64,000 nt of DNA from Escherichia phage rV5_ev158. The first letter of the stretch is position 1. Each line of letters opens with the position of its first letter. Below the pieces are notes generated by a model. It had not been told where the DNA came from and made no database searches. It saw nothing but the letters and a program-made list of their open reading frames with translations. Made by a program: the position numbers and the translations under genes. Below, in pieces: positions 3,554-61,442 of this stretch. The DNA lies in sequence record LR694611. One strand, 5' to 3'.

Positions 3554-4372
3554 TTGAGCAAGAAAGAGTCCAACGACAAATATTACACAAACCCTGAGTA
3601 TGCAGAATATCTTGTTGGTAAAGTAAAAGATAAGTATGGAAATTGTGCATACGTTGAGCCTTCTGCTGGAAGGGGTTCTTTTTCAAAACTATTTTCAGAG
3701 ATACTGTCTTACGATCTAGTACCAGATCCTGAATTTGAAGGACCAACACCGTGCATTCAGGCAAACTTCTTGGAGGTGCATCCCAAGGCAGATGTCTTCA
3801 TAGGTAACCCACCATTTGGCAAGAATTCATCTTTAGCTTGCAAATTCTTTAACCATTGTGCATCATTGCTAGAGCTTGGAGGGGCTATAGCCTTCATCTT
3901 GCCACGGACATTTGAAAAAATATTTTTTGCAAACAAACTGGACATGTCGATGCACCTTGTCTACAGTGAAAGGTGCCCTAAGAACTCGTTTCTACTTAAT
4001 GGCAAACCTTATGACGTGCCGTGTGTTTTCCAAATTTGGGAGAAAAAGGCGTGCAACAGGGATCCTGTAGAGATTGGGGAGAATAAGTTATTTTCTTTTA
4101 GCACTCCAGATGACTACGACTTCTGTGTAAGACGTGTTGGGTATAATGCTGGAAAAGTATTGGGGGAGGATGACCCAAAATCTGAAGAATCAACATATTT
4201 CATAAAATCTTTAGTTGACGGTGTTGACAGAGTGTTTGCTGAATGCTATTCTTCTTTTCAAGAAGAAGCAGGTAAGACTGCCGGAATGAAGAGTATAGGT
4301 AAGAAAGAACTACAATACATTTTGGAGACTAGGTATGATCAAAAGCATAGACTTGACCAAAGAACTTACTGA
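3554..4372 (+). CDS. N6-adenine DNA methyltransferase (gamma-class, TaqI-like motif order)
   Basis: KYYTNPEYAEYLV, then VEPSAGRGSF (AdoMet motif I-like), then FIGNPPFGK (motif IV); start placed at in-frame TTG 3554 after the terminator, GGAGG 4 nt upstream. Confidence 0.6.
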   Translation: MSKKESNDKYYTNPEYAEYLVGKVKDKYGNCAYVEPSAGRGSFSKLFSEILSYDLVPDPEFEGPTPCIQANFLEVHPKADVFIGNPPFGKNSSLACKFFNHCASLLELGGAIAFILPRTFEKIFFANKLDMSMHLVYSERCPKNSFLLNGKPYDVPCVFQIWEKKACNRDPVEIGENKLFSFSTPDDYDFCVRRVGYNAGKVLGEDDPKSEESTYFIKSLVDGVDRVFAECYSSFQEEAGKTAGMKSIGKKELQYILETRYDQKHRLDQRTY

Positions 4373-4415
4373 TGCAAAAGCTTTTGGTGAGACAGCGGTA
4401 CAAAGGGGGCAGGCG

Positions 4416-17614: not shown

Positions 17615-18148
17615 ATGACTTGTGCTAGAAAACCTGATGAACAACGTAACGCCTACGATGAGTATGTGACACCGGAGTGGTGTGCAGAAGGGCTGTATGA
17701 CCTTATTCCGTTCCCAGAAGACTGGACCTACTTAGAGCCTTGCAGGAATAGTGCCTCAGGTGTGTTCTACTCACGTATGCCGTTAGGATCTGCATGGGGA
17801 GAAATCCAAGAAGGTGTTGACTATCTGAATACAGAATACAACCATGTTGACTGTATTATCACCAACCCACCATACAGCCTGGCTCGTGAGTTTGTAGACA
17901 AGGCGTTGAAAGATGCTGACGTAGTTATTATGCTTTTGCGTCTTAATTTTCTGGAAAGCAAAGCCAGATTTGAATGGTGGCTTGATAATGCACCTACTAC
18001 TGTGATCACAATATCTAAGCGTCCATCATTTCAATCAAATGGCAGAACTGACGGGCAAGCATATGCATATTTTGTGTGGGATAAGAAAAACCGTTTAGAC
18101 TTGCCGCCGTTTATGTGGTTGGCACCCCCAGAGGTAGACCTGAAATGA
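17615..18148 (+). CDS. small DNA N6-adenine methyltransferase-like protein
   Basis: 177 aa with IITNPPY catalytic motif; size and motif fit small phage Dam-like methyltransferases. Confidence 0.5.
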   Translation: MTCARKPDEQRNAYDEYVTPEWCAEGLYDLIPFPEDWTYLEPCRNSASGVFYSRMPLGSAWGEIQEGVDYLNTEYNHVDCIITNPPYSLAREFVDKALKDADVVIMLLRLNFLESKARFEWWLDNAPTTVITISKRPSFQSNGRTDGQAYAYFVWDKKNRLDLPPFMWLAPPEVDLK

Positions 18149-18429
18149 AAATGAGTGCTAAGGACAAATTACACCAGTTAGCGCTAAAACGTCCTGTAAC
18201 GCTTCCTGACGAGCTTAACTCCATTTATGATGCGATTGTAGGGGAGATACAAAATAAAGCGTTAGCAGGCTTTCTGGGGTGCGGATTTTCGATAAATCTA
18301 CCCTCGCATCTCTCAGATTACTTCCCGCACATTGTTGGAGATTTAAGGGCAGGAGGTCTGCAGGTAGATGTTGTTGGCATCTCCCCAGAGAAAAATAATA
18401 CGGTTGCCTACTTGACAGTAACCTGGTAG
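18145..18429 (+). CDS. hypothetical protein
   Basis: ATG 18145 with GAGGTAG upstream. Confidence 0.45.
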   Translation: MKMSAKDKLHQLALKRPVTLPDELNSIYDAIVGEIQNKALAGFLGCGFSINLPSHLSDYFPHIVGDLRAGGLQVDVVGISPEKNNTVAYLTVTW

Positions 18430-29875: not shown

Positions 29876-30004
29876 CACACAATCAGCTGCCCGGCTAAAG
29901 TGCTGGAAGCGCACCTATAACACATCTTTCAACTAAATTTCCTACCACCACAATCACTTACCTACCACACATGACTGTTTGCTTGTTTAGTGAGCAGTCA
30001 TGCC

Positions 30005-30033
30005 TTGACATTCTTGCCTATCCTGATAAAATT
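30005..30033 (+). promoter_or_regulatory. sigma70-like promoter TTGACA-16-TAAAAT reading into ORF-free DNA
   Basis: -35 at 30005-30010, -10 at 30027-30032; no ORF of 60 aa or more on either strand for about 2.2 kb downstream. Confidence 0.45.
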
Positions 30034-31382
30034 AAGTTCTTCTCTTTTCTTTTACCGAGTAATTCGGGTTTTCTGTTCTCTTCGGTTTGAAGGGGTATGG
30101 AGATACACCTGAGTGAACAGGGTGAACAACCGAACCATTGGCTATGGCATTAGCATGGCGAAGCGGACGGGTGACGAAAGAGGGGCCGGAGGACACCAGT
30201 CACTGCCATATGATATATGGGTGATAACCTGAAGAGTCTGAATAAGTGTTTAAGTACCAGTCAGAGGAAAAGGTGAATGGTAGCCGAAGGGGGATGGGGG
30301 GTTTCTTGTATCTTTAATTTGTATATTATGTATACACTTGTAAACCAATCTCATCTGAATCTGTTTACCACACAAAGCGGATAGAGACAAATATCACCTA
30401 TTAAACTTGAATTATTTATAGAAAATACCACAACACCACTTAAGTCTTTGATTTTACACACAAATCCTACAGATATTCAACCTCCATATTTAACATACTT
30501 GTAACATATTCCATACTCTACCTGTCTGATCAATTTCCCCAACTACATTCTCATATTTTCCCTGTCTGTACTACCCCTGCCCCGCCGGGAGTCCCGTCAT
30601 ATCTGGCTTTCCAGCAAATATCACACCCACAAATATCATTGCCTGAAGAGGGTTTCATCCCATAATACCTGCCTTACCTGAAGAGCGCTTCATACACCAC
30701 GTAAATTTTTTAATTGACCTCCCCCTGCCCCGCCGGAGAGGTTGGCTTTTCCCACACAGACCTGAAGAGTCAGCCAGAAATATCTGAACAGGCCCAATTC
30801 TACCACGATTTTGACCTGACCTACAGGGAGGCCCGAAGGGTCTAGCTTTCAGCTAGAGTCCTTGCAGGACCTACAGGAGCGCTGCCAGGCGGACGGAATG
30901 GGAATACTTCTCATTCTTATAACAATTCTCAAATATCGAGACAGTGAGAGAAATTAATAGGCCAGGCCGTTCACACAGTGGCACAACATTTGCAACCTAT
31001 TTTGGGTGGATGAATGAGAATACCTATCATTGTGAGAACTGTTATCATTACGGGCAATTTAACATAATACCCATTATGCGCACCACCGGCGATACATACA
31101 GGGATTGATAACATGGGTTACTGTTTACGCACATAACAATTATATTTCTTACTATTTGTGTGGGATATAGTTAGCAGCCGATAGATTAGATATTAACCTG
31201 CAGACTTCTGACCGTCCAGACGTCTAAACGCCCACACACCAAGGATTATACATACACTCCTGAATGTAAACAGGGCCGCAAAAATGCTACCATACAAGCT
31301 TGTAAATTTTTCATGCAGCACTTGACAAAGAGGAGAAAAACTTGTCTGACATAATGTGACCTAACTGACACAACATGACACT

Positions 31383-31471
31383 TTTACACACCTATTAGTT
31401 TACACACTGGATTGTTTACATTCCTGATTGTTCACATGCTAACCATTTACATGATTGACTGTTTACACACC
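31383..31471. repeat. iteron-like array, six copies of (T/A)GTT(T/C)ACA spaced 14-16 bp
   Basis: TTTTACACACC, AGTTTACACAC, TGTTTACATTC, TGTTCACATGC, CATTTACATGA, TGTTTACACACC; further TGTTTAC copies near 31121, 31265 (inverted), 31871, 31924, 31973. Confidence 0.6.
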
Positions 31472-31479
31472 GATAATCA

Positions 31480-31773
31480 GCCATGCCATTCGTTTGCATG
31501 AAAACAATTAACAAGATAACAATCGACAAGTTAATAATCTTTCGCTGGCTATGCCAGGTGACTAGGTCACCCCTTCGGGCGTTCCTATGACATAATATAA
31601 AAGCAGGGCAACTATTAGCAGATCTATAGTTGCCTTGCTTGTTATGTCATGATTAACTAAATACAAGGCAACTATGATCTGATTAATAGTTTGCAGACAA
31701 ACTATCACGGGGGTGATGGTTACTGCTTTTATATTATGTCGCGACTCCGTCGCGCCATGCCATTCGTTTGCAT
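31480..31773. repeat. 20 bp perfect direct repeats flanking a palindrome-rich 274 bp module
   Basis: GCCATGCCATTCGTTTGCAT at 31480-31499 and 31754-31773; between them a ~66 bp imperfect palindrome (31586-31652, centre AGATCT), GCAACTAT/ATAGTTGC inverted repeats and hairpin CGCGACTCCGTCGCG. Confidence 0.6.
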
Positions 31774-32380
31774 AGTTGCCTTATTGTTACGAATAAAACA
31801 ATTGCATTGTTAATGATTTCTTATCTTTCTCTTAGTCATCTAATGATTCCAGTCAGTATAGTAATGTACAGTAAACATTAGACGACTAAAGATTTCTCTG
31901 TTTATGATAACTCATCTTGATAATTTCGGACTGTTTACGAAAAATGTTGACACCTGAGCTGATTTATGTTATGCAGTTTACACGAATAATTATTTTATGC
32001 AGGTATTGACTATTCCGTTATTCTGTGGTTGGAATAAATACTTTGCAGGCTATAGAATGGCGTGCGTACGTGAATTCTGAGATCTGGCGGCTATAGTTAT
32101 ACTCGATTTTTCGCGTAGAACACGCTTTCGATGCTGTGTAAGTGTATGACTTATAAAGATTTTTAGTTGTTGACAAGATATTGGAGATGTGCATCAGGTT
32201 AAAATTTGTGCAATAGCGGCATTACGTGCACTTTTGGGAGAGAAAACGGGTAAAAATGGACTTGCTACCACACAATGAAAAATTATGCAATAGTTATTTT
32301 CCATGTATATTTGTACAGTATGTGGGATTGATGGCTAGTCAATTATTCCACTTGCCAGGTAGGGCCGTTTATGGTAGGAG

Positions 32381-32404
32381 AAGAGCAGACAAAAAGAAAG
32401 GGGC
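32381..32404 (-). terminator. Rho-independent terminator for the minus-strand block
   Basis: AGGGGCCTAAGCCCCT hairpin; on the minus strand it is followed by a T-run (plus-strand AAAAAGAAA upstream). Confidence 0.6.
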
Positions 32405-32433
32405 CTAAGCCCCTTGATAATTCAGTTAAAAAA

Positions 32434-44932: not shown

Positions 44933-45268
44933 TTAAGGTAACCAGTAAACAATCTCGCCTTTCAGCTTCATGTCATTTCCAACATAAATTTGCCAGCCAT
45001 CCATCGTTTTGGCAACTGCAGGCCCAAAGTCATCCGCACCCCTTACCTCTTTCCAGGTCCCGTAGTCAGGTTGCCAGATATAAAATCCACCTTCTTTGTC
45101 CCATGCTCCATACACCACGTTTGACAGGTTTCCCATTGCAACAATAGTGGGCCGTGGGAATAATGCATCTACAGATGCGCCACAATATCGGGTATCTTTT
45201 AAATTGCACTCCCAAAAGATGTCTGCCAGTGTGGCGGCGATAGCTTTACGTCTTTCTAATGTTACCAT
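44933..45268 (-). CDS. hypothetical protein
   Basis: 111 aa. Confidence 0.5.
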   Translation of the reverse strand: MVTLERRKAIAATLADIFWECNLKDTRYCGASVDALFPRPTIVAMGNLSNVVYGAWDKEGGFYIWQPDYGTWKEVRGADDFGPAVAKTMDGWQIYVGNDMKLKGEIVYWLP

Positions 45269-45275
45269 ATCATAC

Positions 45276-45467
45276 TCACTTGTTGTTAATAAGTTCTAAA
45301 ACTTTCTGTCTTACTTTGTCAAGATCTGTTGATTCAAAAACTGTACGATATCCCCAACTTTGCCCATATGAGTGATTGCAATCCCCGTAGCACCATTGCT
45401 CAATTTGATAGTATTCAAGGAACGGGTGCTGTCTAACTATGATACCATCCCGGTTAAAAATTACCAT
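45276..45467 (-). CDS. hypothetical protein
   Basis: 63 aa. Confidence 0.4.
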   Translation of the reverse strand: MVIFNRDGIIVRQHPFLEYYQIEQWCYGDCNHSYGQSWGYRTVFESTDLDKVRQKVLELINNK

Positions 45468-45530
45468 AATACATCGCTCTCTGTTAGTTTATGCGTATAT
45501 TATACACTGCAGTTTTCAGATGTCAACCTC

Positions 45531-45782
45531 TTACAGATTGCTCCAGTACAATCGGCATTTACATTTTGGGCAATGAGGTTCTTTTATGTAATAACCATCA
45601 GTCTTTGGAACACTTTTTGGTGCAGTTTTAAGATTGTACCTGGTAAAACATCTGAAGCAGGTTACCTCTCCCACCTGTTGATCGTTGATCCACTCACCAG
45701 AGTAAAGCTCTTTCTTGTTTCTCATAATTCTCTCCCAAATCCTCTGCAATCTTATACCAAAATCTCCAGCCAGAAAGCACAC
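45531..45782 (-). CDS. hypothetical Cys-rich protein
   Basis: CFRCF...CPKCKC zinc-ribbon-like. Confidence 0.4.
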   Translation of the reverse strand: MCFLAGDFGIRLQRIWERIMRNKKELYSGEWINDQQVGEVTCFRCFTRYNLKTAPKSVPKTDGYYIKEPHCPKCKCRLYWSNL

Positions 45783-45976
45783 GGGAACACTTTGAGGATT
45801 GAATCTTTACTTGGCTCGGAAGTTCTTTTTCCGTATGGTAGGTAGAAATACCCTCCTGCAGATTCGAATATAGCTCCTTCGGTTGTATCTACCACAGCAA
45901 GAATTAAGATTTTAGTCTCCACAGTGCTCTCCTCTCTTAGTTGTCGTGGAAACTATATCACCTCAGAAGATGGTCG

Positions 45977-46516
45977 TCAACACTTTTTGTACTCCACCAC
46001 GACAATATCTATGTCGAAAGTGGCAAGTTTAATAACGTCCTCTACGTGTTCCCACTTCAAACCGCCTATGCCGCACCCGATCTTAGGGATGTAGAATGGT
46101 AAAGTCGATCCGCTAAATACTTCATTGACTAGCTCAAAGCCTTTCAGGATTGAGAAATACTCAGCATTAGGTCCTGGGTAGAACTGGGTATATAGATTGA
46201 TTCCGTAGACAATACCTATCGGAGATAAGTGCTCCCATCGGGAGAACGCACCCAGTTTACTTAGGCAACCGTATCTAGTCTCTTTGTCGGCTGACAGTGC
46301 TTGAGGAAACTCACGGGCAATCTGTTTTGCTATACCCTTGCCCATTGTGTGGAAGCAGTTACAACCGTGGATCAGGTGACCAGCACCGCTCTTAAAAAGG
46401 GAGATTAAATCTCCCTCTACAGTATCAATAATCACGGTAGGCCAGCTCCTCTTCCGCAATTTCAAAAAACTCAGTCCAGCACTGTGGCATATTGGAGTTA
46501 CCGAAGTGGCTTTCAT
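45977..46516 (-). CDS. macrodomain protein (DarG-like ADP-ribose hydrolase fold)
   Basis: HLIHGCNCFHTMGKGIAKQIAREFP and YIPKIGCGIGGLKWEHVEDV resemble recalled DarG macrodomain blocks VNTVGVMGKGIALQFKQAFP and MPALGCGNGGLPWEDV; alternative GTG start at 46435. Confidence 0.65.
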   Translation of the reverse strand: MKATSVTPICHSAGLSFLKLRKRSWPTVIIDTVEGDLISLFKSGAGHLIHGCNCFHTMGKGIAKQIAREFPQALSADKETRYGCLSKLGAFSRWEHLSPIGIVYGINLYTQFYPGPNAEYFSILKGFELVNEVFSGSTLPFYIPKIGCGIGGLKWEHVEDVIKLATFDIDIVVVEYKKC

Positions 46517-46850
46517 AGTAAAGGTTCTTACCGCTAGGAAGGTAGAAATCTGTTACCTCATAAAATCCACAATCGTCGCACTCACCTTCTTCAAACTTGG
46601 CCTTAACCTTAATACCGAGGAAGGTGAAAAGTTTATGGACATCTTCAGTTTCGAACTCCCAGGGAATGTTGTTTTCCGCATCGGTGTAGAACTGGATCAG
46701 CAGACCATTGTCCAGTTTACCAAAATACTCTGTGAAGTAACTTCCTTCCCAGAAATCTTTATGACAAATAATATCCATGCGTTTGCCCATAATAATGGTG
46801 TGAGCGTTTTGGGCATCGTCACGAATCAGTTTTGGCATTTCATAGATCAT
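46425..46850 (-). CDS. hypothetical protein
   Basis: 141 aa. Confidence 0.45.
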   Translation of the reverse strand: MIYEMPKLIRDDAQNAHTIIMGKRMDIICHKDFWEGSYFTEYFGKLDNGLLIQFYTDAENNIPWEFETEDVHKLFTFLGIKVKAKFEEGECDDCGFYEVTDFYLPSGKNLYYESHFGNSNMPQCWTEFFEIAEEELAYRDY

Positions 46851-46918
46851 CTTAGTTCTCCGGGTTCAACAGGTGGTGGTGCTACAGGAAGATCATAAAA
46901 CATGGCTATCACAGTCTC

Positions 46919-47116
46919 TTACACAGGAATTGCTTCAAACAGGCCGTTATCTATACCGTCCTTCAGATAGAGATTATATTCTATGTCGGTATCTGTATAA
47001 AGGGCAGCATCCAGCATTCTATCTGTGAGTCCATCCATTGGGTGGAGAAACCACCACCCACGCCAGTCAAAGTAACAGCCTGGTGCATCTTCTCTTACAC
47101 GGATTCGATAAATCAT
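46919..47116 (-). CDS. hypothetical protein
   Basis: 65 aa. Confidence 0.4.
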   Translation of the reverse strand: MIYRIRVREDAPGCYFDWRGWWFLHPMDGLTDRMLDAALYTDTDIEYNLYLKDGIDNGLFEAIPV

Positions 47117-47212
47117 GGGCAGTGGCCTCCTGTTAGTTATACATCCCAGTTTTCTTCGTTCATCACGTCCTCCCGTTCTATGAAGTTATAATTGCACACC
47201 TTTCCACCTGTG

Positions 47213-47629
47213 TCAACAGAAAACTTCAACAAACTCTTCCACAGTTTTAATGTCGTGGGAAAAAGGTTTACGGCTATAACGGGCAATAGCACTATCAACC
47301 ACCACCCGGTACTCCAAATCTTCAGAATATTTCATGAAGCATTGCAGCGTCTCTGGGCAGATAGCTAAATAGCTCCACCACCCTTCTTCAGATTGGTAGT
47401 CGAATCCCATACTCTCCAACCATGAAGCATATACGCCTGCACCCTCAAGCCAGTGAGTATTTTCATCCAGAAACTTGTTAATAGACATGTGAGCTTCTAA
47501 GCATTTATCCAGCTCTTTTCCGTTAACCAGCCACGCACTGACCGTGGCGCATCCAAAGTCTACAGATTGAGTTGACAGGTTGTATTGGTCATAGTTCTCA
47601 GGTTTAACAATGATATCTTCTAATGTCAT
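47213..47629 (-). CDS. hypothetical protein
   Basis: 138 aa. Confidence 0.5.
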   Translation of the reverse strand: MTLEDIIVKPENYDQYNLSTQSVDFGCATVSAWLVNGKELDKCLEAHMSINKFLDENTHWLEGAGVYASWLESMGFDYQSEEGWWSYLAICPETLQCFMKYSEDLEYRVVVDSAIARYSRKPFSHDIKTVEEFVEVFC

Positions 47630-47642
47630 TTTCAGATCTCCT

Positions 47643-47675
47643 TATACAAAAATGCCCCACCCTTTCGGGCAGGGC
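47643..47675 (-). terminator. Rho-independent terminator (repeated element, copy 1)
   Basis: GCCCCACCCTTTCGGGCAGGGC hairpin; minus-strand T-run follows; same element at 58468-58495. Confidence 0.55.
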
Positions 47676-47690
47676 TATGTTAACTAGGTG

Positions 47691-48314
47691 CTAAAAGTAT
47701 TCGTAGAGGTATCCATCGGGGGCTGGAATTTTTTCATGAATGTAGTAATCAACACATATTCCGGTTTCTCTTCTACAAGAATTGTGGGATACCCATTCTT
47801 TAAGAACGTTTCCATTCATGTCCAGCCTTCTTACATTTTTACACCGTCTACCGCTGGTGCTTCTATGCAACAGAATATCCTCCGTCTGCTTGTCTTTATT
47901 TTCTCCCCAGGTAGTTAAACGGATATTATCAAAAGAGTACCCTTTGAAATCATCTATCCTGTCACAAGAAGGCTTTTTCCTTTTGTCGTATCCGCTGGCT
48001 ACCCACTGATCATACAACTCTTTGTAACCGTTCAGGTATAGCCACTCCTTAAACTCTTTTTTGGTGTAAGTCGGAGGAGGGTGGCCTCTTTGCTTGCTGT
48101 TGCACTTTTGAGCCTTGTACAGCACGCGTATTACACCTTTTTCTGAAGAGTCGTGGGAAAATTGGTCAGCCTCCTTGCTGGCCTTCTTGCAACACTCTTT
48201 GCACTTATTAAGATGACCGTCAGACATCTTTGGGTGTTTGTAGAACTCGGAGAGGTTTTTCACCTCTCCGCACTTTATGCACCTCTTACAATGCGTGGAT
48301 TCTGCTTTTGCCAT
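47691..48314 (-). CDS. Cys-rich zinc-finger protein
   Basis: N-terminal HCKRCIKCGEV...NKCKECC cluster; function not recognised. Confidence 0.5.
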   Translation of the reverse strand: MAKAESTHCKRCIKCGEVKNLSEFYKHPKMSDGHLNKCKECCKKASKEADQFSHDSSEKGVIRVLYKAQKCNSKQRGHPPPTYTKKEFKEWLYLNGYKELYDQWVASGYDKRKKPSCDRIDDFKGYSFDNIRLTTWGENKDKQTEDILLHRSTSGRRCKNVRRLDMNGNVLKEWVSHNSCRRETGICVDYYIHEKIPAPDGYLYEYF

Positions 48315-49557
48315 ATTGCAAACCTACCGGAGCGAAAGGTATGTCATCACAGAAGTCATACTGCGCCGGATTCTGACCCATCGGGTCATCTTCCTCATCA
48401 TTTACAGGAGGAGCGTCTACAGTGTTTTGCTGTGGAGCTGCTTCCTGTTTGGCAGCCTGAGGTTCTTGATGGTCAGTTGACCCAGCACCGTTCTTGATCC
48501 AATCGTACAACGGCTCAGCCAGATTAGTCAAGACATCTTTTGCTTCTGCAGTAATTGCCGCTGCAAAATCATCAACTTTCGTTTTCTTGTCAATACGGCG
48601 ACAAGCGTTCAACACCGCATTACCGACACTGGCACCTACTTCATCTTCAGTTCGGTTGGTGGCTTGAGCATACTCTTTCTTAAGCTCAATGGTGACTACG
48701 TGCAGTGTTTTAGCCACACCTAGTGGGTCGTCTACCTTAAACCCGCGATCCAGGATGATTTGCAACGCATTGATGCTATGTCCCGTCTCCACACCAATAG
48801 GGTCGTAAGAGGATTTACGCTTGCCACCAGAGCCTTGAGTGCCGTTCTCTGCCTTAGGTGGATAGGCTTTGAAACCGCTGATAATGTTTCCGGTGTCTTT
48901 GTCAACAATGGCTGCAACACGACCACCTACCACCAGGTCTTTAAGCTGCTCATCAGTAACAACCATGGCACCTTCGCCAATCTTGTGGTCATTAACAGTA
49001 ACCACGTTGCCAACAATCTGAGTCACATCGCCATAGATGCGTAAAACGTCCTGATTGGCATTCTGCTGAGGTTTCTGCTTCTGGCCTTGTGATTGTGCAC
49101 CTTGTTGCTGTTTTTGCTGCTGAGTCGCTGCTGGAGCCTCTCCTGCACCCAGCTTGACCATCTTAGCCAGTGAGCCTTTGTAATAGGTCTTACCGTTATG
49201 CTCGTTTGCCTTCAAAGGGATATTTACGATCCATCCCGGCGTTACGGTTTCCCACTTGTCATCAATTTTAACAGAGACAGAGTCTTGATGACCAGGTTTA
49301 AGCAGCTTATCACCCATACTGATCCAAACTTCTTCACCACCTTGAAGCAGGTTATCAGAGGAATCCAGTTCAGAAATCAGTAAAGAGATGGTGTGGCTGG
49401 ATTCAATTTTCTTACCTTGCCACACAGTGGTTTTAATACCTGTTGTAGGATCAGCACCTTTGATAGGTTTGATGCTGACACGTTTAATCATGCCGTGAGC
49501 CAGTAAAACAGTTTCACGCGGATTCATCGGGTTAGCGAATTGTTGAATAACGCTCAT
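48286..49557 (-). CDS. putative ssDNA-binding protein (SSB-like; tentative)
   Basis: 423 aa; Gln-rich low-complexity linker and acidic C-terminal region containing DDIPF, the canonical SSB tail motif, though not at the extreme C-terminus. Confidence 0.35.
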   Translation of the reverse strand: MSVIQQFANPMNPRETVLLAHGMIKRVSIKPIKGADPTTGIKTTVWQGKKIESSHTISLLISELDSSDNLLQGGEEVWISMGDKLLKPGHQDSVSVKIDDKWETVTPGWIVNIPLKANEHNGKTYYKGSLAKMVKLGAGEAPAATQQQKQQQGAQSQGQKQKPQQNANQDVLRIYGDVTQIVGNVVTVNDHKIGEGAMVVTDEQLKDLVVGGRVAAIVDKDTGNIISGFKAYPPKAENGTQGSGGKRKSSYDPIGVETGHSINALQIILDRGFKVDDPLGVAKTLHVVTIELKKEYAQATNRTEDEVGASVGNAVLNACRRIDKKTKVDDFAAAITAEAKDVLTNLAEPLYDWIKNGAGSTDHQEPQAAKQEAAPQQNTVDAPPVNDEEDDPMGQNPAQYDFCDDIPFAPVGLQYGKSRIHAL

Positions 49558-59739: not shown

Positions 59740-61039
59740 TTAAGGTCGGGGCAAGTTTGTAATAACGGAAGCCACCACCACCTTGCCAGTTTACAGACTT
59801 AGAAATACCACCTTGATCTTCACCATCGATCACTTTTTCCAAGCGCGGAATAATATGGGTATGACAATGATCACCTAGCTCGATTGAGATCCAACGTCTT
59901 TTCATCTTGTGAGCTACAGCAGCAGTAGTTCCCGAACCACCGAATGAATCCAATACCAAATAGCCTTCTCGCGTACACATTTCGAAAATTCGCTTCAAAA
60001 GCGCTTCTGGTTTTTTCCCATTTTTGAAACTAACGCCGCCTTCATTTGCTATTCCATTCCAACTAATGTCTGTCCAAACATCAGTTATTAGTTCCGCAGG
60101 TTGCATATCACCGTCAATTTCCAAAAGCCTGTTGGAGTAAAAGACCATTTGCCTACCATTTACGATATAAAATCCTTCAACATCTTCATTTGGATGTACA
60201 TAAACCTTATCCCTATCTTTCTTTGACTTCTCGATAGTTTCTTTTCTCTTTATTTTAGCACCACCGCCGATTGCAACAGATTGAAATACACGTTCTGCAT
60301 TATCAATTGCGAATTGTGCTAATTCATCATCGAATGTATCAGGCAGTTTTTTCTTGGCCTCTTTTGCATCTTTATAGCCATTGGCCTTTGCAAACGCATC
60401 GGCAATACCGCACCACGTCCAATTTTTATAATGGTCATCCGGGTTTAATAGGTATTTGTTATATCCTGTATCGTACCCTTTAGGTATATAGATTTTGTTA
60501 AGCGGTTTCTGGGTGCGATCTTTTGCATATACAAGCAAAAAGTTTGCTGTGGAGAAAACTGTGGCTCCTGTTGCCTTAAATCCCGAAGGGGAATTTGTGG
60601 TCATCGATATGGTATTTAACTGATTTGCACGACCAAAAATCTCGTCCATCAAAACTTTTAAATACGCCATTTCGCAATCATCTAAGTGAACGAATATTAC
60701 CCCATCATCACTTAGAAGATTACGAATTATTTCTAACCTATCCCTCATTAAGCCCAGCCAAATGGAATGCTCCAGGCTATCATCGTAGTGCTCAAAAGCC
60801 CTCCCGGTATTGAATGGCGGGTCTATGTAAACACACTTCACTTTGCCTGCATACTCTTGCTCTAGCGCCTTCAATGCTAATAAGTTATCTCCAAAAATCA
60901 GTTTATTATCAAAAATATCGTTTTCGGTCACTTTCTGGCTGCGGTAAGACTTGCTAGAATCTTCTAATAAAATGTGCGGCTCTAACTTTTTGCGCTCGTT
61001 TTTACCTATCCAGGTAAGTTCTAATTTGGTTTTGCTCAT
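59714..61039 (-). CDS. DNA methyltransferase (N6-adenine or N4-cytosine, beta-class motif order)
   Basis: VYIDPPFNTG (motif IV) near N-terminus and LVLDSFGGSGTT (motif I) near C-terminus; AAGGAGAG upstream. Confidence 0.7.
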   Translation of the reverse strand: MSKTKLELTWIGKNERKKLEPHILLEDSSKSYRSQKVTENDIFDNKLIFGDNLLALKALEQEYAGKVKCVYIDPPFNTGRAFEHYDDSLEHSIWLGLMRDRLEIIRNLLSDDGVIFVHLDDCEMAYLKVLMDEIFGRANQLNTISMTTNSPSGFKATGATVFSTANFLLVYAKDRTQKPLNKIYIPKGYDTGYNKYLLNPDDHYKNWTWCGIADAFAKANGYKDAKEAKKKLPDTFDDELAQFAIDNAERVFQSVAIGGGAKIKRKETIEKSKKDRDKVYVHPNEDVEGFYIVNGRQMVFYSNRLLEIDGDMQPAELITDVWTDISWNGIANEGGVSFKNGKKPEALLKRIFEMCTREGYLVLDSFGGSGTTAAVAHKMKRRWISIELGDHCHTHIIPRLEKVIDGEDQGGISKSVNWQGGGGFRYYKLAPTLIAKDKSDQ

Positions 61040-61100
61040 CGTTTGGTGCTCTCCTTAGTTTTTTGTGGGGAGGAGGCCTCCCCTTTATACTCACATCTTA

Positions 61101-61442
61101 CTACTCAAGGTCTTCAGAGTCAAGCTCAAAAAGAATCAAACTGTGCATGCCTGCAGATAGATTAACACACCCTGCAACAATAAGGGTCTGATAGTAAGGT
61201 TCAGCACCCTCGATGTCTTCGTTAAAATCCACAACAAGGTAGTCACCTTTGTTAAAGGTGTATTTGTCCGATGTAAACGCAAAACCTGCCCAGTCCCCTA
61301 CTGCAGGGTCTTTATCAGTCACCTTTGTTAACAGTAGATCTTTTTCACGGGATCTTTTAGTAAAATCGTGAATCACAACATCCTTCTCTTCAGGAGTTGG
61401 ATTGCCACACACGTAGTTAACTATATTTCTCCACAAACTCAT
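61101..61442 (-). CDS. hypothetical protein
   Basis: 113 aa. Confidence 0.45.
   Translation of the reverse strand: MSLWRNIVNYVCGNPTPEEKDVVIHDFTKRSREKDLLLTKVTDKDPAVGDWAGFAFTSDKYTFNKGDYLVVDFNEDIEGAEPYYQTLIVAGCVNLSAGMHSLILFELDSEDLE

What the first reader, a model, noticed from the sequence alone, without database searches (positions are those of the whole stretch)
45977..46516. DarG-like macrodomain protein, a candidate ADP-ribosylation-reversing anti-defence factor
The blocks HLIHGCNCFHTMGKGIAKQIAREFP and YIPKIGCGIGGLKWEHVEDV match the two conserved stretches of the DarG-type macrodomain as I recall them. DarT toxins ADP-ribosylate DNA and act in phage defence, so a free-standing phage macrodomain could remove that or another ADP-ribose mark. 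The true start may be GTG at 46435 rather than the listed ATG.
Basis: partly seen in the sequence, partly recalled or inferred. Interest (0 to 1): 0.75.

Follow-up and report, generated by a model that had tools for sequence, protein, structure and literature searches.

The report
Phage macrodomain that counters DarT defence

Summary
The window is Escherichia phage rV5_ev168 (Vequintavirus). The gene is real, on the minus strand at 45977-46435.

It is the full-length homolog of T4 Tk.4 (39% identity, E 6e-41; PHROG 335, E 5e-59). A 2025 preprint showed tk.4 (renamed adfM) is needed by T4 only on hosts carrying DarTG2. The likely function is therefore removal of DarT2's ADP-ribose from thymidine in phage DNA.

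Two qualifications apply:
- It is not a DarG. It scores 47 bits against the 250-bit DarG cutoff and has no DarT-binding domain. DarG's catalytic Lys80 is replaced by an invariant Gln84, as in the active dT-ADPr hydrolase SCO6735.
- It belongs to a different lineage from the DarG-like AdfM of PhiKZ (20% identity).

The rV5-type protein itself is untested. Its Bas54 counterpart, assigned by synteny, is dispensable on E. coli K-12. Verdict: new member of a known kind, modest interest.

The parts
45977..46435 (-). CDS of the 152-aa free-standing macrodomain protein (Tk.4/AdfM homolog); the stop codon TGA at 45977-45979 is included
   Evidence: ORF. Annotated CDS VVA60567.1 in LR694610.1. Pfam Macro. 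PHROG 335 E 5e-59. AF2 pLDDT 97. 39% identity to T4 Tk.4.
46433..46450 (-). Translation start: Shine-Dalgarno AGGAG (46450-46446), a 10-nt spacer, then GTG start codon (46435-46433). The start overlaps the stop of the upstream gene by 11 nt (GTGATTATTGA), which suggests translational coupling.
   Evidence: Sequence read. N-termini of homologs. Same 11-nt overlap in Bas48/49/50 and Bas54 annotations.
46328..46378 (-). Residues 20-36, HLIHGCNCFHTMGKGIA: first ADP-ribose-binding loop. H23, G24, N26, G34 and A36 are invariant or nearly so. N26 (AAC, 46360-46358) aligns with DarG N22.
   Evidence: Conservation counts. HMM alignments to DarG, TARG1 and BT1257. The role of DarG N22 is described in PMC13309987.
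46169..46198 (-). Residues 80-89, NLYTQFYPGP: family signature N-x-Y-T-Q. Q84 (CAG, 46186-46184) is invariant in 65/65 sequences. It occupies the position of the catalytic Lys of DarG (K80) and TARG1 (K84), and of the essential Gln85 of SCO6735.
   Evidence: PMC9411070.
46061..46087 (-). Residues 117-125, PKIGCGIGG: glycine-rich diphosphate-binding loop (P117 and G120 invariant; I119, G122 and G125 at 90% or more)
46425..46850 (-). Upstream gene (141 aa, PHROG 8157, unknown function) whose stop overlaps the macrodomain start. Context only; there is no evidence that it is a functional partner.
47654..47675 (-). Terminator-like hairpin (9 pairs, 7 G-C, followed by a T-run). It is the nearest upstream terminator-like site and may mark the start of the transcription unit containing genes 47629-47213, 47116-46919, 46850-46425 and the macrodomain gene. 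Consensus match only.

Best explanation
The gene encodes the Vequintavirus member of the T4 Tk.4 / AdfM family. This is a single-domain macrodomain made by the phage during infection.

When a host DarTG2 system releases DarT2, that toxin ADP-ribosylates thymidines in single-stranded phage DNA and blocks replication. The phage macrodomain binds the ADP-ribose through its two conserved loops (H23-G24-x-N26 and I119-G-x-G-x-G125). It then hydrolyses the ribose-thymine bond, restores unmodified DNA and releases ADP-ribose.

Catalysis is probably lysine-independent. The invariant Gln84 would position the substrate or a water molecule, as proposed for SCO6735 Gln85, rather than acting like DarG's Lys80.

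What is shown here: the gene, its start, the fold, the class, family membership and the active-site residues. What is shown elsewhere: anti-DarTG2 activity of the T4 homolog, and dT-ADPr hydrolysis by a Gln-type macrodomain (SCO6735) and by a phage Lys-type macrodomain (PhiKZ AdfM). What is inferred: that this particular protein hydrolyses dT-ADPr and protects rV5-like phages from DarTG2.
For: - Family. PHROG 335 E 5e-59. 39% identity, E 6e-41, end to end with T4 Tk.4, sharing the HGCNCFHTMG, NLYTQ and IGxGIG motifs. Acinetobacter phage 133 'tk.4' is among the top BFVD fold hits.
- Function of the homolog. T4 tk.4 was the single hit in a transposon screen on a DarTG2 host, and a clean knockout became DarTG2-sensitive (10.1101/2025.11.20.689424).
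- Chemistry. Q84 is invariant in 65/65 family members and aligns with DarG K80, TARG1 K84 and the BT1257 Gln. SCO6735 Gln85 is essential, and that enzyme removes DarT-made dT-ADPr and rescues cells from DarT (PMC9411070).
- Accessory character. The Bas54 counterpart assigned by synteny, bas54_0092, tolerated insertions at 31/31 TA sites on E. coli K-12, which lacks DarTG.
- Spread. A homolog is found in 2,772 phage records across many genera.
Against: - No experiment exists on this protein or any Vequintavirus ortholog against DarTG2. Two searches found none, and the only papers holding both 'DarTG2' and 'Vequintavirinae' report no such test.
- Enzymatic activity has not been shown for any member of the Tk.4 lineage. 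The T4 evidence is genetic and comes from a preprint.
- Identity to T4 Tk.4 is only 39%.
- DarG's catalytic Lys is absent.
- The 5-6-residue longer 'mobile loop' that characterises the SCO6735/BT1257 subclass is also absent, so the SCO6735 mechanism may not transfer.
- The DNA-positioning lysines of SCO6735 (K34, K89) are not conserved in the family. Position 33 is mostly Ala and position 88 is Gly.
- The Bas54 ortholog assignment rests on synteny and gene lengths, not on a sequence alignment I made.
Confidence: 0.7

Rival explanations
1. The protein neutralises DarT2 mainly by binding the toxin or its product (stoichiometric inhibition), not by catalytic hydrolysis. In this reading Gln84 marks a binder rather than an enzyme.
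For: Catalytically dead SCO6735 Q85A, DarG K80A and TARG1 K84A still inhibit DarT in vitro, and SCO6735 does so most strongly (PMC9411070). AdfA and AdfB are non-enzymatic anti-DarT factors. DarG's catalytic Lys is missing.
Against: Wild-type SCO6735, with Gln at this position, is a faster dT-ADPr hydrolase than DarG. The substrate-binding residues N26 and Q84 and the G-rich loop are invariant across very different phages that would meet different DarT variants. That pattern fits conservation of a small-molecule site better than conservation of a protein interface. The protein has no domain resembling DarG's DarT-binding domain (the match covers only the first 141 positions of the 338-position DarG model).
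Confidence: 0.1
2. It erases a different ADP-ribose mark, instead of or as well as DarT2's. Candidates are Glu/Asp-linked protein ADP-ribosylation (as TARG1 does) and RNA or DNA-end ADP-ribosylation by other host ADP-ribosyltransferase defences. This would make it a broader-spectrum eraser.
For: TARG1 and SCO6735 act on both DNA and protein substrates. The family is about equally distant from DarG, TARG1, BT1257 and Poa1p (54-69 bits; pairwise E 1e-7 to 1e-14). It occurs in 2,772 phage records infecting many host genera.
Against: In T4, tk.4 was found specifically with DarTG2 and is otherwise dispensable. SCO6735 prefers DNA to protein and does not touch dG-ADPr. I ran no test of other substrates.
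Confidence: 0.12
3. It is a metabolic ADP-ribose-1''-phosphate phosphatase (Poa1p-like), as the legacy 'phosphatase' and 'A1pp' annotations imply. It would process a by-product of RNA 2'-phosphate removal or of NAD breakdown.
Against: The annotation is a domain-name inheritance, not an assay. Poa1p scores lowest among the ALC1-like class against the family profile (54.6 bits). The only functional data on the family point to DarTG2. No RNA-repair or Tpt1-like partner was seen among ten neighbouring genes scanned against Pfam.
Confidence: 0.05
4. It is a captured DarG antitoxin in the strict sense, meaning an orphan copy of a bacterial DarG2.
For: The best single PDB sequence hit is the Mtb DarG macrodomain. 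The PADLOC and NCBIfam DarG models are the only defence or antitoxin models hit.
Against: It scores 47 bits against the 250-bit cutoff. The catalytic Lys80 is replaced. It is 23-28% identical to DarG, BT1257 and TARG1 alike. By contrast PhiKZ gp104 is clearly of DarG lineage, with 37% identity and E 9e-28 to Mtb DarG.
Confidence: 0.03

Closest known systems
T4 Tk.4 = AdfM (anti-DarT factor Macrodomain; HIDEN-SEQ preprint, bioRxiv 10.1101/2025.11.20.689424)
   Same: Same family (PHROG 335). 39% identity over the full length, E 6e-41. Similar size (152 vs 155 aa) and single-domain architecture. Same motifs: HGCNCFHTMG, NLYTQ (Gln at the catalytic position) and P-x-IG-x-GIG. Both sit among small genes in non-structural gene regions and are dispensable on K-12.
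   Different: Different phage family (Vequintavirinae vs Straboviridae) and different neighbours. In T4 the gene lies between vs and tk.3; here it lies among unknown genes downstream of a T7-like DNA polymerase. The anti-DarTG2 phenotype has been shown only for T4.
Chimallivirus AdfM (PhiKZ gp104; Cell Rep 2026, PMC13309987)
   Same: Free-standing phage macrodomain of the same structural class, shown to remove DarT2-made ADP-ribose from DNA. It is expected to have the same biological role.
   Different: Separate lineage. It is 20% identical to this protein (E 1e-4) but 37% identical to Mtb DarG (E 9e-28). It keeps the DarG-type catalytic Lys (PTK motif, K78) where this protein has Gln84. It is imported into the phage nucleus. 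The same name, AdfM, has been given to two non-orthologous proteins.
DarG2 antitoxin macrodomain (M. tuberculosis 5M3I, T. aquaticus 5M3E)
   Different: No C-terminal DarT-binding domain and no adjacent darT. 47 bits against a 250-bit equivalog cutoff. Gln84 in place of the catalytic Lys80.
SCO6735 (5E3B) / BT1257 (2FG1, 2AFC) subclass of ALC1-like macrodomains
   Different: The family lacks the 5-6-residue longer 'mobile loop' that defines that subclass. SCO6735 K34 and K89 are not conserved. Only about 24% identity. Those proteins are cellular, not viral.
Human TARG1/OARD1 and yeast Poa1p
   Different: TARG1 uses a Lys84/Asp125 dyad that is absent here. Poa1p is an ADP-ribose-1''-phosphate phosphatase, and no evidence links this phage family to that reaction.

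Membership tests
Macrodomain superfamily (Pfam PF01661) | Sequence match above the Pfam gathering threshold | tested here: met
   28 bits against a cutoff of 22, E 2.2e-6.
Macrodomain superfamily (Pfam PF01661) | Three-layer alpha/beta/alpha macro fold | tested here: met
ALC1-like (TARG1/DarG) macrodomain class | Closest structural and sequence neighbours are TARG1, DarG, SCO6735/BT1257 and Poa1p rather than MacroD, PARG or viral Mac1 types | tested here: met
T4 Tk.4 / AdfM family (PHROG 335) | Full-length sequence homology to T4 Tk.4, including the family motifs | tested here: met
   PHROG 335 E 5e-59. BLASTP 39% identity, E 6e-41, residues 1-150 against 1-152. N26, N80 and Q84 are invariant, and H23, Y82 and T83 nearly so, in 65 homologs.
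T4 Tk.4 / AdfM family (PHROG 335) | Confers resistance to DarTG2 and is dispensable otherwise | not testable with these tools
   Shown only for T4. The Bas54 gene assigned by synteny, bas54_0092, is non-essential on K-12, which is consistent but not a test.
DarG antitoxin (NCBIfam NF048014 equivalog; DarTG2 system) | Score above the equivalog cutoff, with a two-domain architecture (macrodomain plus DarT-binding domain) | tested here: not met
   47 bits against a cutoff of 250. The match covers only model positions 3-141 of 338, and the protein is 152 aa.
DarG antitoxin (NCBIfam NF048014 equivalog; DarTG2 system) | Catalytic lysine (TaqDarG K80) in the P-T-K motif | tested here: not met
   Gln84 aligns with K80 in HMM alignments to both DarG structures. 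It is invariant in the family.
DarG antitoxin (NCBIfam NF048014 equivalog; DarTG2 system) | Encoded next to a darT toxin gene | tested here: not met
   The flanking genes are small phage ORFs with no DarT or ART domain.
SCO6735/BT1257 subclass | Gln at the position of the catalytic Lys (SCO6735 Q85) | tested here: met
   NLYTQ aligns with BT1257 NMIGQ. The equivalence of Q85 to DarG K80 is stated in PMC9411070.
SCO6735/BT1257 subclass | Mobile loop about five residues longer than in DarG/TARG1 | tested here: not met
   BT1257 carries a 6-residue insertion relative to the phage family directly after the Gln. The phage loop has the same length as in DarG and TARG1.
Poa1p-like ADP-ribose-1''-phosphate phosphatase | Appr-1''-p phosphatase activity and active-site residues | not tested

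The most novel reading that the evidence does not exclude
The Tk.4/rV5 lineage may not be a captured DarG antitoxin at all. It could be a separate, phage-borne Gln-type branch of the ALC1-like macrodomains, recruited independently of the Lys-type AdfM of chimalliviruses. It would work by a lysine-independent mechanism, without the long mobile loop of SCO6735, and might erase ADP-ribose marks beyond DarT2-modified thymidine, such as RNA or protein marks laid down by other ADP-ribosyltransferase defences. That would make it a broad-spectrum counter-defence eraser carried by thousands of phages.
Probability: 0.25. Interest if true: 0.5.

Novelty: new member of a known kind. Interest (0 to 1): 0.3.

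Why it matters
It extends the recently described macrodomain anti-DarT factor (AdfM/Tk.4) from T-even phages to the rV5-like Vequintavirinae, a group of broad-host-range E. coli phages. It predicts that these phages are intrinsically resistant to DarTG2.

It also brings out two points that the papers I read (in part, by term search) do not appear to state. First, two non-orthologous phage macrodomains now share the name AdfM. Second, the widespread Tk.4 type (2,772 phage records) has an invariant Gln where DarG and TARG1 have the catalytic Lys, so its chemistry is probably closer to that of SCO6735.

Beyond that the result is confirmatory. The gene was already annotated as a macro-domain protein, and the concept has already been demonstrated.

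Tried and rejected
- The longer ATG-46516 start. Rejected because it has no Shine-Dalgarno sequence, the extension lies inside the upstream gene, and no homolog or annotation uses it.
- Filing the protein as a DarG. Rejected on the score cutoff, the domain architecture, the catalytic Lys and the missing darT neighbour.
- Filing it in the SCO6735/BT1257 subclass. Rejected because the defining long mobile loop is absent.
- Equating it with PhiKZ AdfM. Rejected at 20% identity; gp104 is of DarG lineage.
- Looking for informative neighbours. Pfam scans of 13 flanking proteins gave only Phage_zn_bind_2 and a DUF, and no ART, NADAR or RNA-repair partner.
- Literature searches for DarTG2 tests on Vequintavirinae found none.
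- I looked for model coordinates to measure active-site geometry, but they are not exposed to scripts.
- Not done: a whole-genome search for a NADAR (AdfN) or a phage ADP-ribosyltransferase in rV5_ev168. PMC11825919 reports NADARs only in Bas60-62 among the BASEL Vequintavirinae, which suggests by inference that the close relatives of this phage, Bas48-50, lack one.

Full report
**Identity of the window and the gene.** Megablast of window 45000-47500 gives a 100% match to Escherichia phage rV5_ev168 (LR694610.1, Vequintavirus). A further 114 records cover at least 80% of the query, and nearly all matches are 90-99% identical. Window coordinate equals record coordinate minus 74125.

The deposited record annotates the CDS as 45977..46435 (VVA60567.1, 'T4-like protein ... 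with Macro domain, Poa1p_like family').

Four things support the GTG start:
- an AGGAG Shine-Dalgarno sequence at 46450-46446, 10 nt upstream;
- the 11-nt overlap GTGATTATTGA with the stop of the upstream gene 46425-46850;
- the N-termini of 65 homologs, which begin at the equivalent 'MII';
- the same gene layout in Bas48, Bas49, Bas50 and Bas54.

The product is 152 aa.

**Is it a macrodomain?** Yes.
- Pfam Macro scores 28 bits against a gathering cutoff of 22 (E 2.2e-6).
- The sequence alone finds the M. tuberculosis DarG macrodomain 5M3I (E 8.5e-7), Poa1p, BT1257, SCO6735 and TARG1 in the PDB.
- A profile of 65 homologs raises these to E 6e-18 through 1e-11.
- AlphaFold2 with that alignment gives pLDDT 97 and pTM 0.91.

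The protein therefore belongs to the ALC1-like (TARG1/DarG) class. It is about equally distant from each characterised member: 23-28% identity, with pairwise E-values of 1e-7 to 1e-12 for this protein and down to 7e-14 for T4 Tk.4.

**What family is it?** PHROG 335 matches at E 5e-59. tblastn finds a homolog in 2,772 phage records: T-even phages, Felixounavirus, Ackermannviridae, Pseudomonas, Vibrio and Acinetobacter phages and others. In T-even genomes the match falls on gene tk.4.

Against T4 Tk.4 (NC_000866, 60922-61389), the rV5 protein is 39% identical from residue 1 to 150 (E 6e-41). The two share the motifs HGCNCFHTMG, NLYTQ-x-PGPN-x-EY and P-x-IG-x-GIG. BFVD fold search also returns 'tk.4 [Acinetobacter phage 133]' and many phage 'macro domain-containing' proteins at the top.

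**What is known about that family?** A November 2025 preprint (HIDEN-SEQ, bioRxiv 10.1101/2025.11.20.689424) reports three things. First, tk.4 was the single significant hit when a T4 transposon library was grown on a DarTG2-expressing host. Second, a clean tk.4 knockout became DarTG2-sensitive. Third, the protein resembles Mtb DarG. The authors renamed it adfM and proposed enzymatic removal of ADP-ribose from DNA.

Earlier work had shown that T4 lacking AdfA and AdfN remains DarTG2-resistant, which implied a further factor (PMC11825919).

Separately, a 2026 Cell Reports paper (PMC13309987) named the PhiKZ gp104 macrodomain AdfM. It showed in vitro removal of DarT2-made ADP-ribose from DNA, and multi-log restriction of deletion mutants by DarTG2.

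**Refinements from this analysis.**

*It is not a DarG.* The NCBIfam DarG equivalog model scores 47 bits against a 250-bit cutoff and matches only its N-terminal 141 of 338 positions. There is no DarT-binding domain. Scans of 13 of the flanking genes found no DarT or ART domain.

*The active site differs.* In HMM alignments to both DarG structures and to TARG1, the family's N-x-Y-T-Q motif aligns with N-F-P-T-K (DarG) and Y-L-I-T-K (TARG1). Gln84 therefore occupies the position of the catalytic Lys (TaqDarG K80, TARG1 K84). It aligns with the Gln of BT1257. Counting the T. aquaticus chain numbering with its 10-residue offset confirms N26 = N22 and Q84 = K80. Gln84, Asn26, Asn80, Gly24, Gly34, Ala36, Pro117 and Gly120 are invariant in 65 homologs.

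The SCO6735 study (PMC9411070) shows that a Gln at this position (Q85) is essential. It also shows that the enzyme removes DarT-made dT-ADPr faster than DarG and rescues cells from DarT, and it proposes a water-initiated mechanism. However, the phage family lacks the 5-6-residue longer mobile loop that defines the SCO6735/BT1257 subclass, and it lacks conservation of SCO6735 K34 and K89. It is best described as its own Gln-type branch.

*The two phage 'AdfM' proteins are not orthologs.* PhiKZ gp104 is 37% identical to Mtb DarG (E 9e-28) and keeps the P-T-K lysine. It is only 20% identical to the rV5 protein (E 1e-4) and barely detectable against T4 Tk.4 (E 0.005). Phages appear to have recruited ALC1-like macrodomains at least twice.

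**Context.** The gene sits in a long minus-strand block that runs from rIIB, helicase, primase-helicase and a T7-like DNA polymerase down through dozens of small unknown genes. Its start overlaps the stop of an unknown 141-aa gene (PHROG 8157). A strong terminator-like hairpin at 47675-47654, followed by sigma-70-like sites, may delimit the transcription unit, but these are consensus matches only.

In the HIDEN-SEQ supplement, Vequintavirus Bas54 has an identically arranged pair of genes: a 426-nt gene overlapping a 459-nt gene by 11 nt, flanked by genes of 198, 417, 624 and 1272 nt. The 459-nt gene, bas54_0092, took insertions at 31 of 31 TA sites and is classed non-essential on E. coli K-12. 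This fits an accessory counter-defence gene. The ortholog assignment is by synteny. The Bas54 library was not challenged with DarTG2.

**Mechanism proposed, and how sure.** The most likely mechanism (about 0.7) is as follows. The protein is made during infection. It binds ADP-ribosyl-thymidine on single-stranded phage DNA through the H23/N26 loop and the 119-125 glycine-rich loop. It then hydrolyses the N-glycosidic link without a catalytic lysine, with Gln84 positioning the substrate or water. This lets replication proceed on DarTG2 hosts.

The gene, fold, class, family and residues are shown here. The phenotype of T4 Tk.4 and the activities of SCO6735 and PhiKZ AdfM are shown elsewhere. That this protein has the activity, and that rV5-like phages depend on it, is inferred.

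The rivals are:
- stoichiometric DarT2 inhibition (0.10);
- another or a broader ADP-ribose substrate (0.12);
- Poa1p-type phosphatase, as the legacy annotation suggests (0.05);
- a true captured DarG (0.03; fails the membership tests).

**Verdict.** The gene was already annotated as a macro-domain protein, and the family's anti-DarTG2 role is already reported. This is a new member of a known kind and of modest interest. The Gln-for-Lys active site and the non-orthology of the two 'AdfM' lineages are the only points with some novelty.

Noticed in passing
window 29877-32433: About 2.5 kb with no annotated CDS, lying where the plus-strand gene block (1-29876) and the minus-strand block (32434-64000) converge. 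No tRNA and no Rfam match. Repeats cluster around 31480-31790: a perfect 18-nt inverted repeat GACATAATATAAAAGCAG, a GGCAACTAT hairpin, and a perfect 20-nt direct repeat GCCATGCCATTCGTTTGCAT. The HIDEN-SEQ preprint reports that a ~2 kb intergenic region between oppositely transcribed blocks in Bas54 tolerates no transposon insertions; this is probably the same region. It could be an origin or a regulatory RNA locus.
   Followed up: partly
window 48286-49557 (minus strand): A 423-aa protein with no Pfam hit. Its Bas54 counterpart by synteny (bas54_0087, 1272 nt) is classed essential, with 8 of 57 TA sites hit. An essential Vequintavirus gene of unknown function lies four genes upstream of the macrodomain gene.
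   Followed up: partly
literature / L003:22518-23006 vs L002:4923-5390: The name AdfM has been given independently to two non-orthologous phage macrodomains. One is T4 Tk.4, which is Gln-type and belongs to the same lineage as this gene. The other is PhiKZ gp104, which is Lys-type and of DarG lineage. The two are barely detectable against each other (E 0.005).
   Followed up: yes
window 45531-45782 (minus strand; annotated CDS 45531-45725): Two genes downstream of the macrodomain gene is a small protein with a strong Phage_zn_bind_2 domain (PF23903, E 1.6e-22; PHROG 4864). Its function is unknown.
   Followed up: no
window 45499-45526 (minus strand): A perfect 12/12 sigma-70 consensus, TTGACA-16 nt-TATAAT, lies in the gap between genes 45531-45725 and 45276-45467. 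It is a likely strong host-RNA-polymerase promoter inside the small-gene block.
   Followed up: no
BFVD hit A0A481YV05 (Marseillevirus LCMAC103): The best viral fold match (TM 0.94, 38% identity) is a 302-aa giant-virus protein labelled 'SNF2 subfamily protein'. A Tk.4-like macrodomain therefore also occurs in a eukaryotic giant virus, which recalls the ALC1 macro-plus-SNF2 association.
   Followed up: no
window 45000-47500 relatives: Sixteen GenBank records named 'Campylobacter phage' (for example C12, MG065635.1, host Campylobacter jejuni) match this E. coli rV5-like region; C12 is about 98% identical. This suggests mislabelled hosts or contamination in those deposits.
   Followed up: no
window 3555-4373, 17616-18149 and 59839-61164: The window encodes two N6-adenine DNA methyltransferases and an orphan 'Type III R-M methylation subunit'. 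These are plausible anti-restriction functions in the same phage that carries the anti-DarT macrodomain.
   Followed up: no
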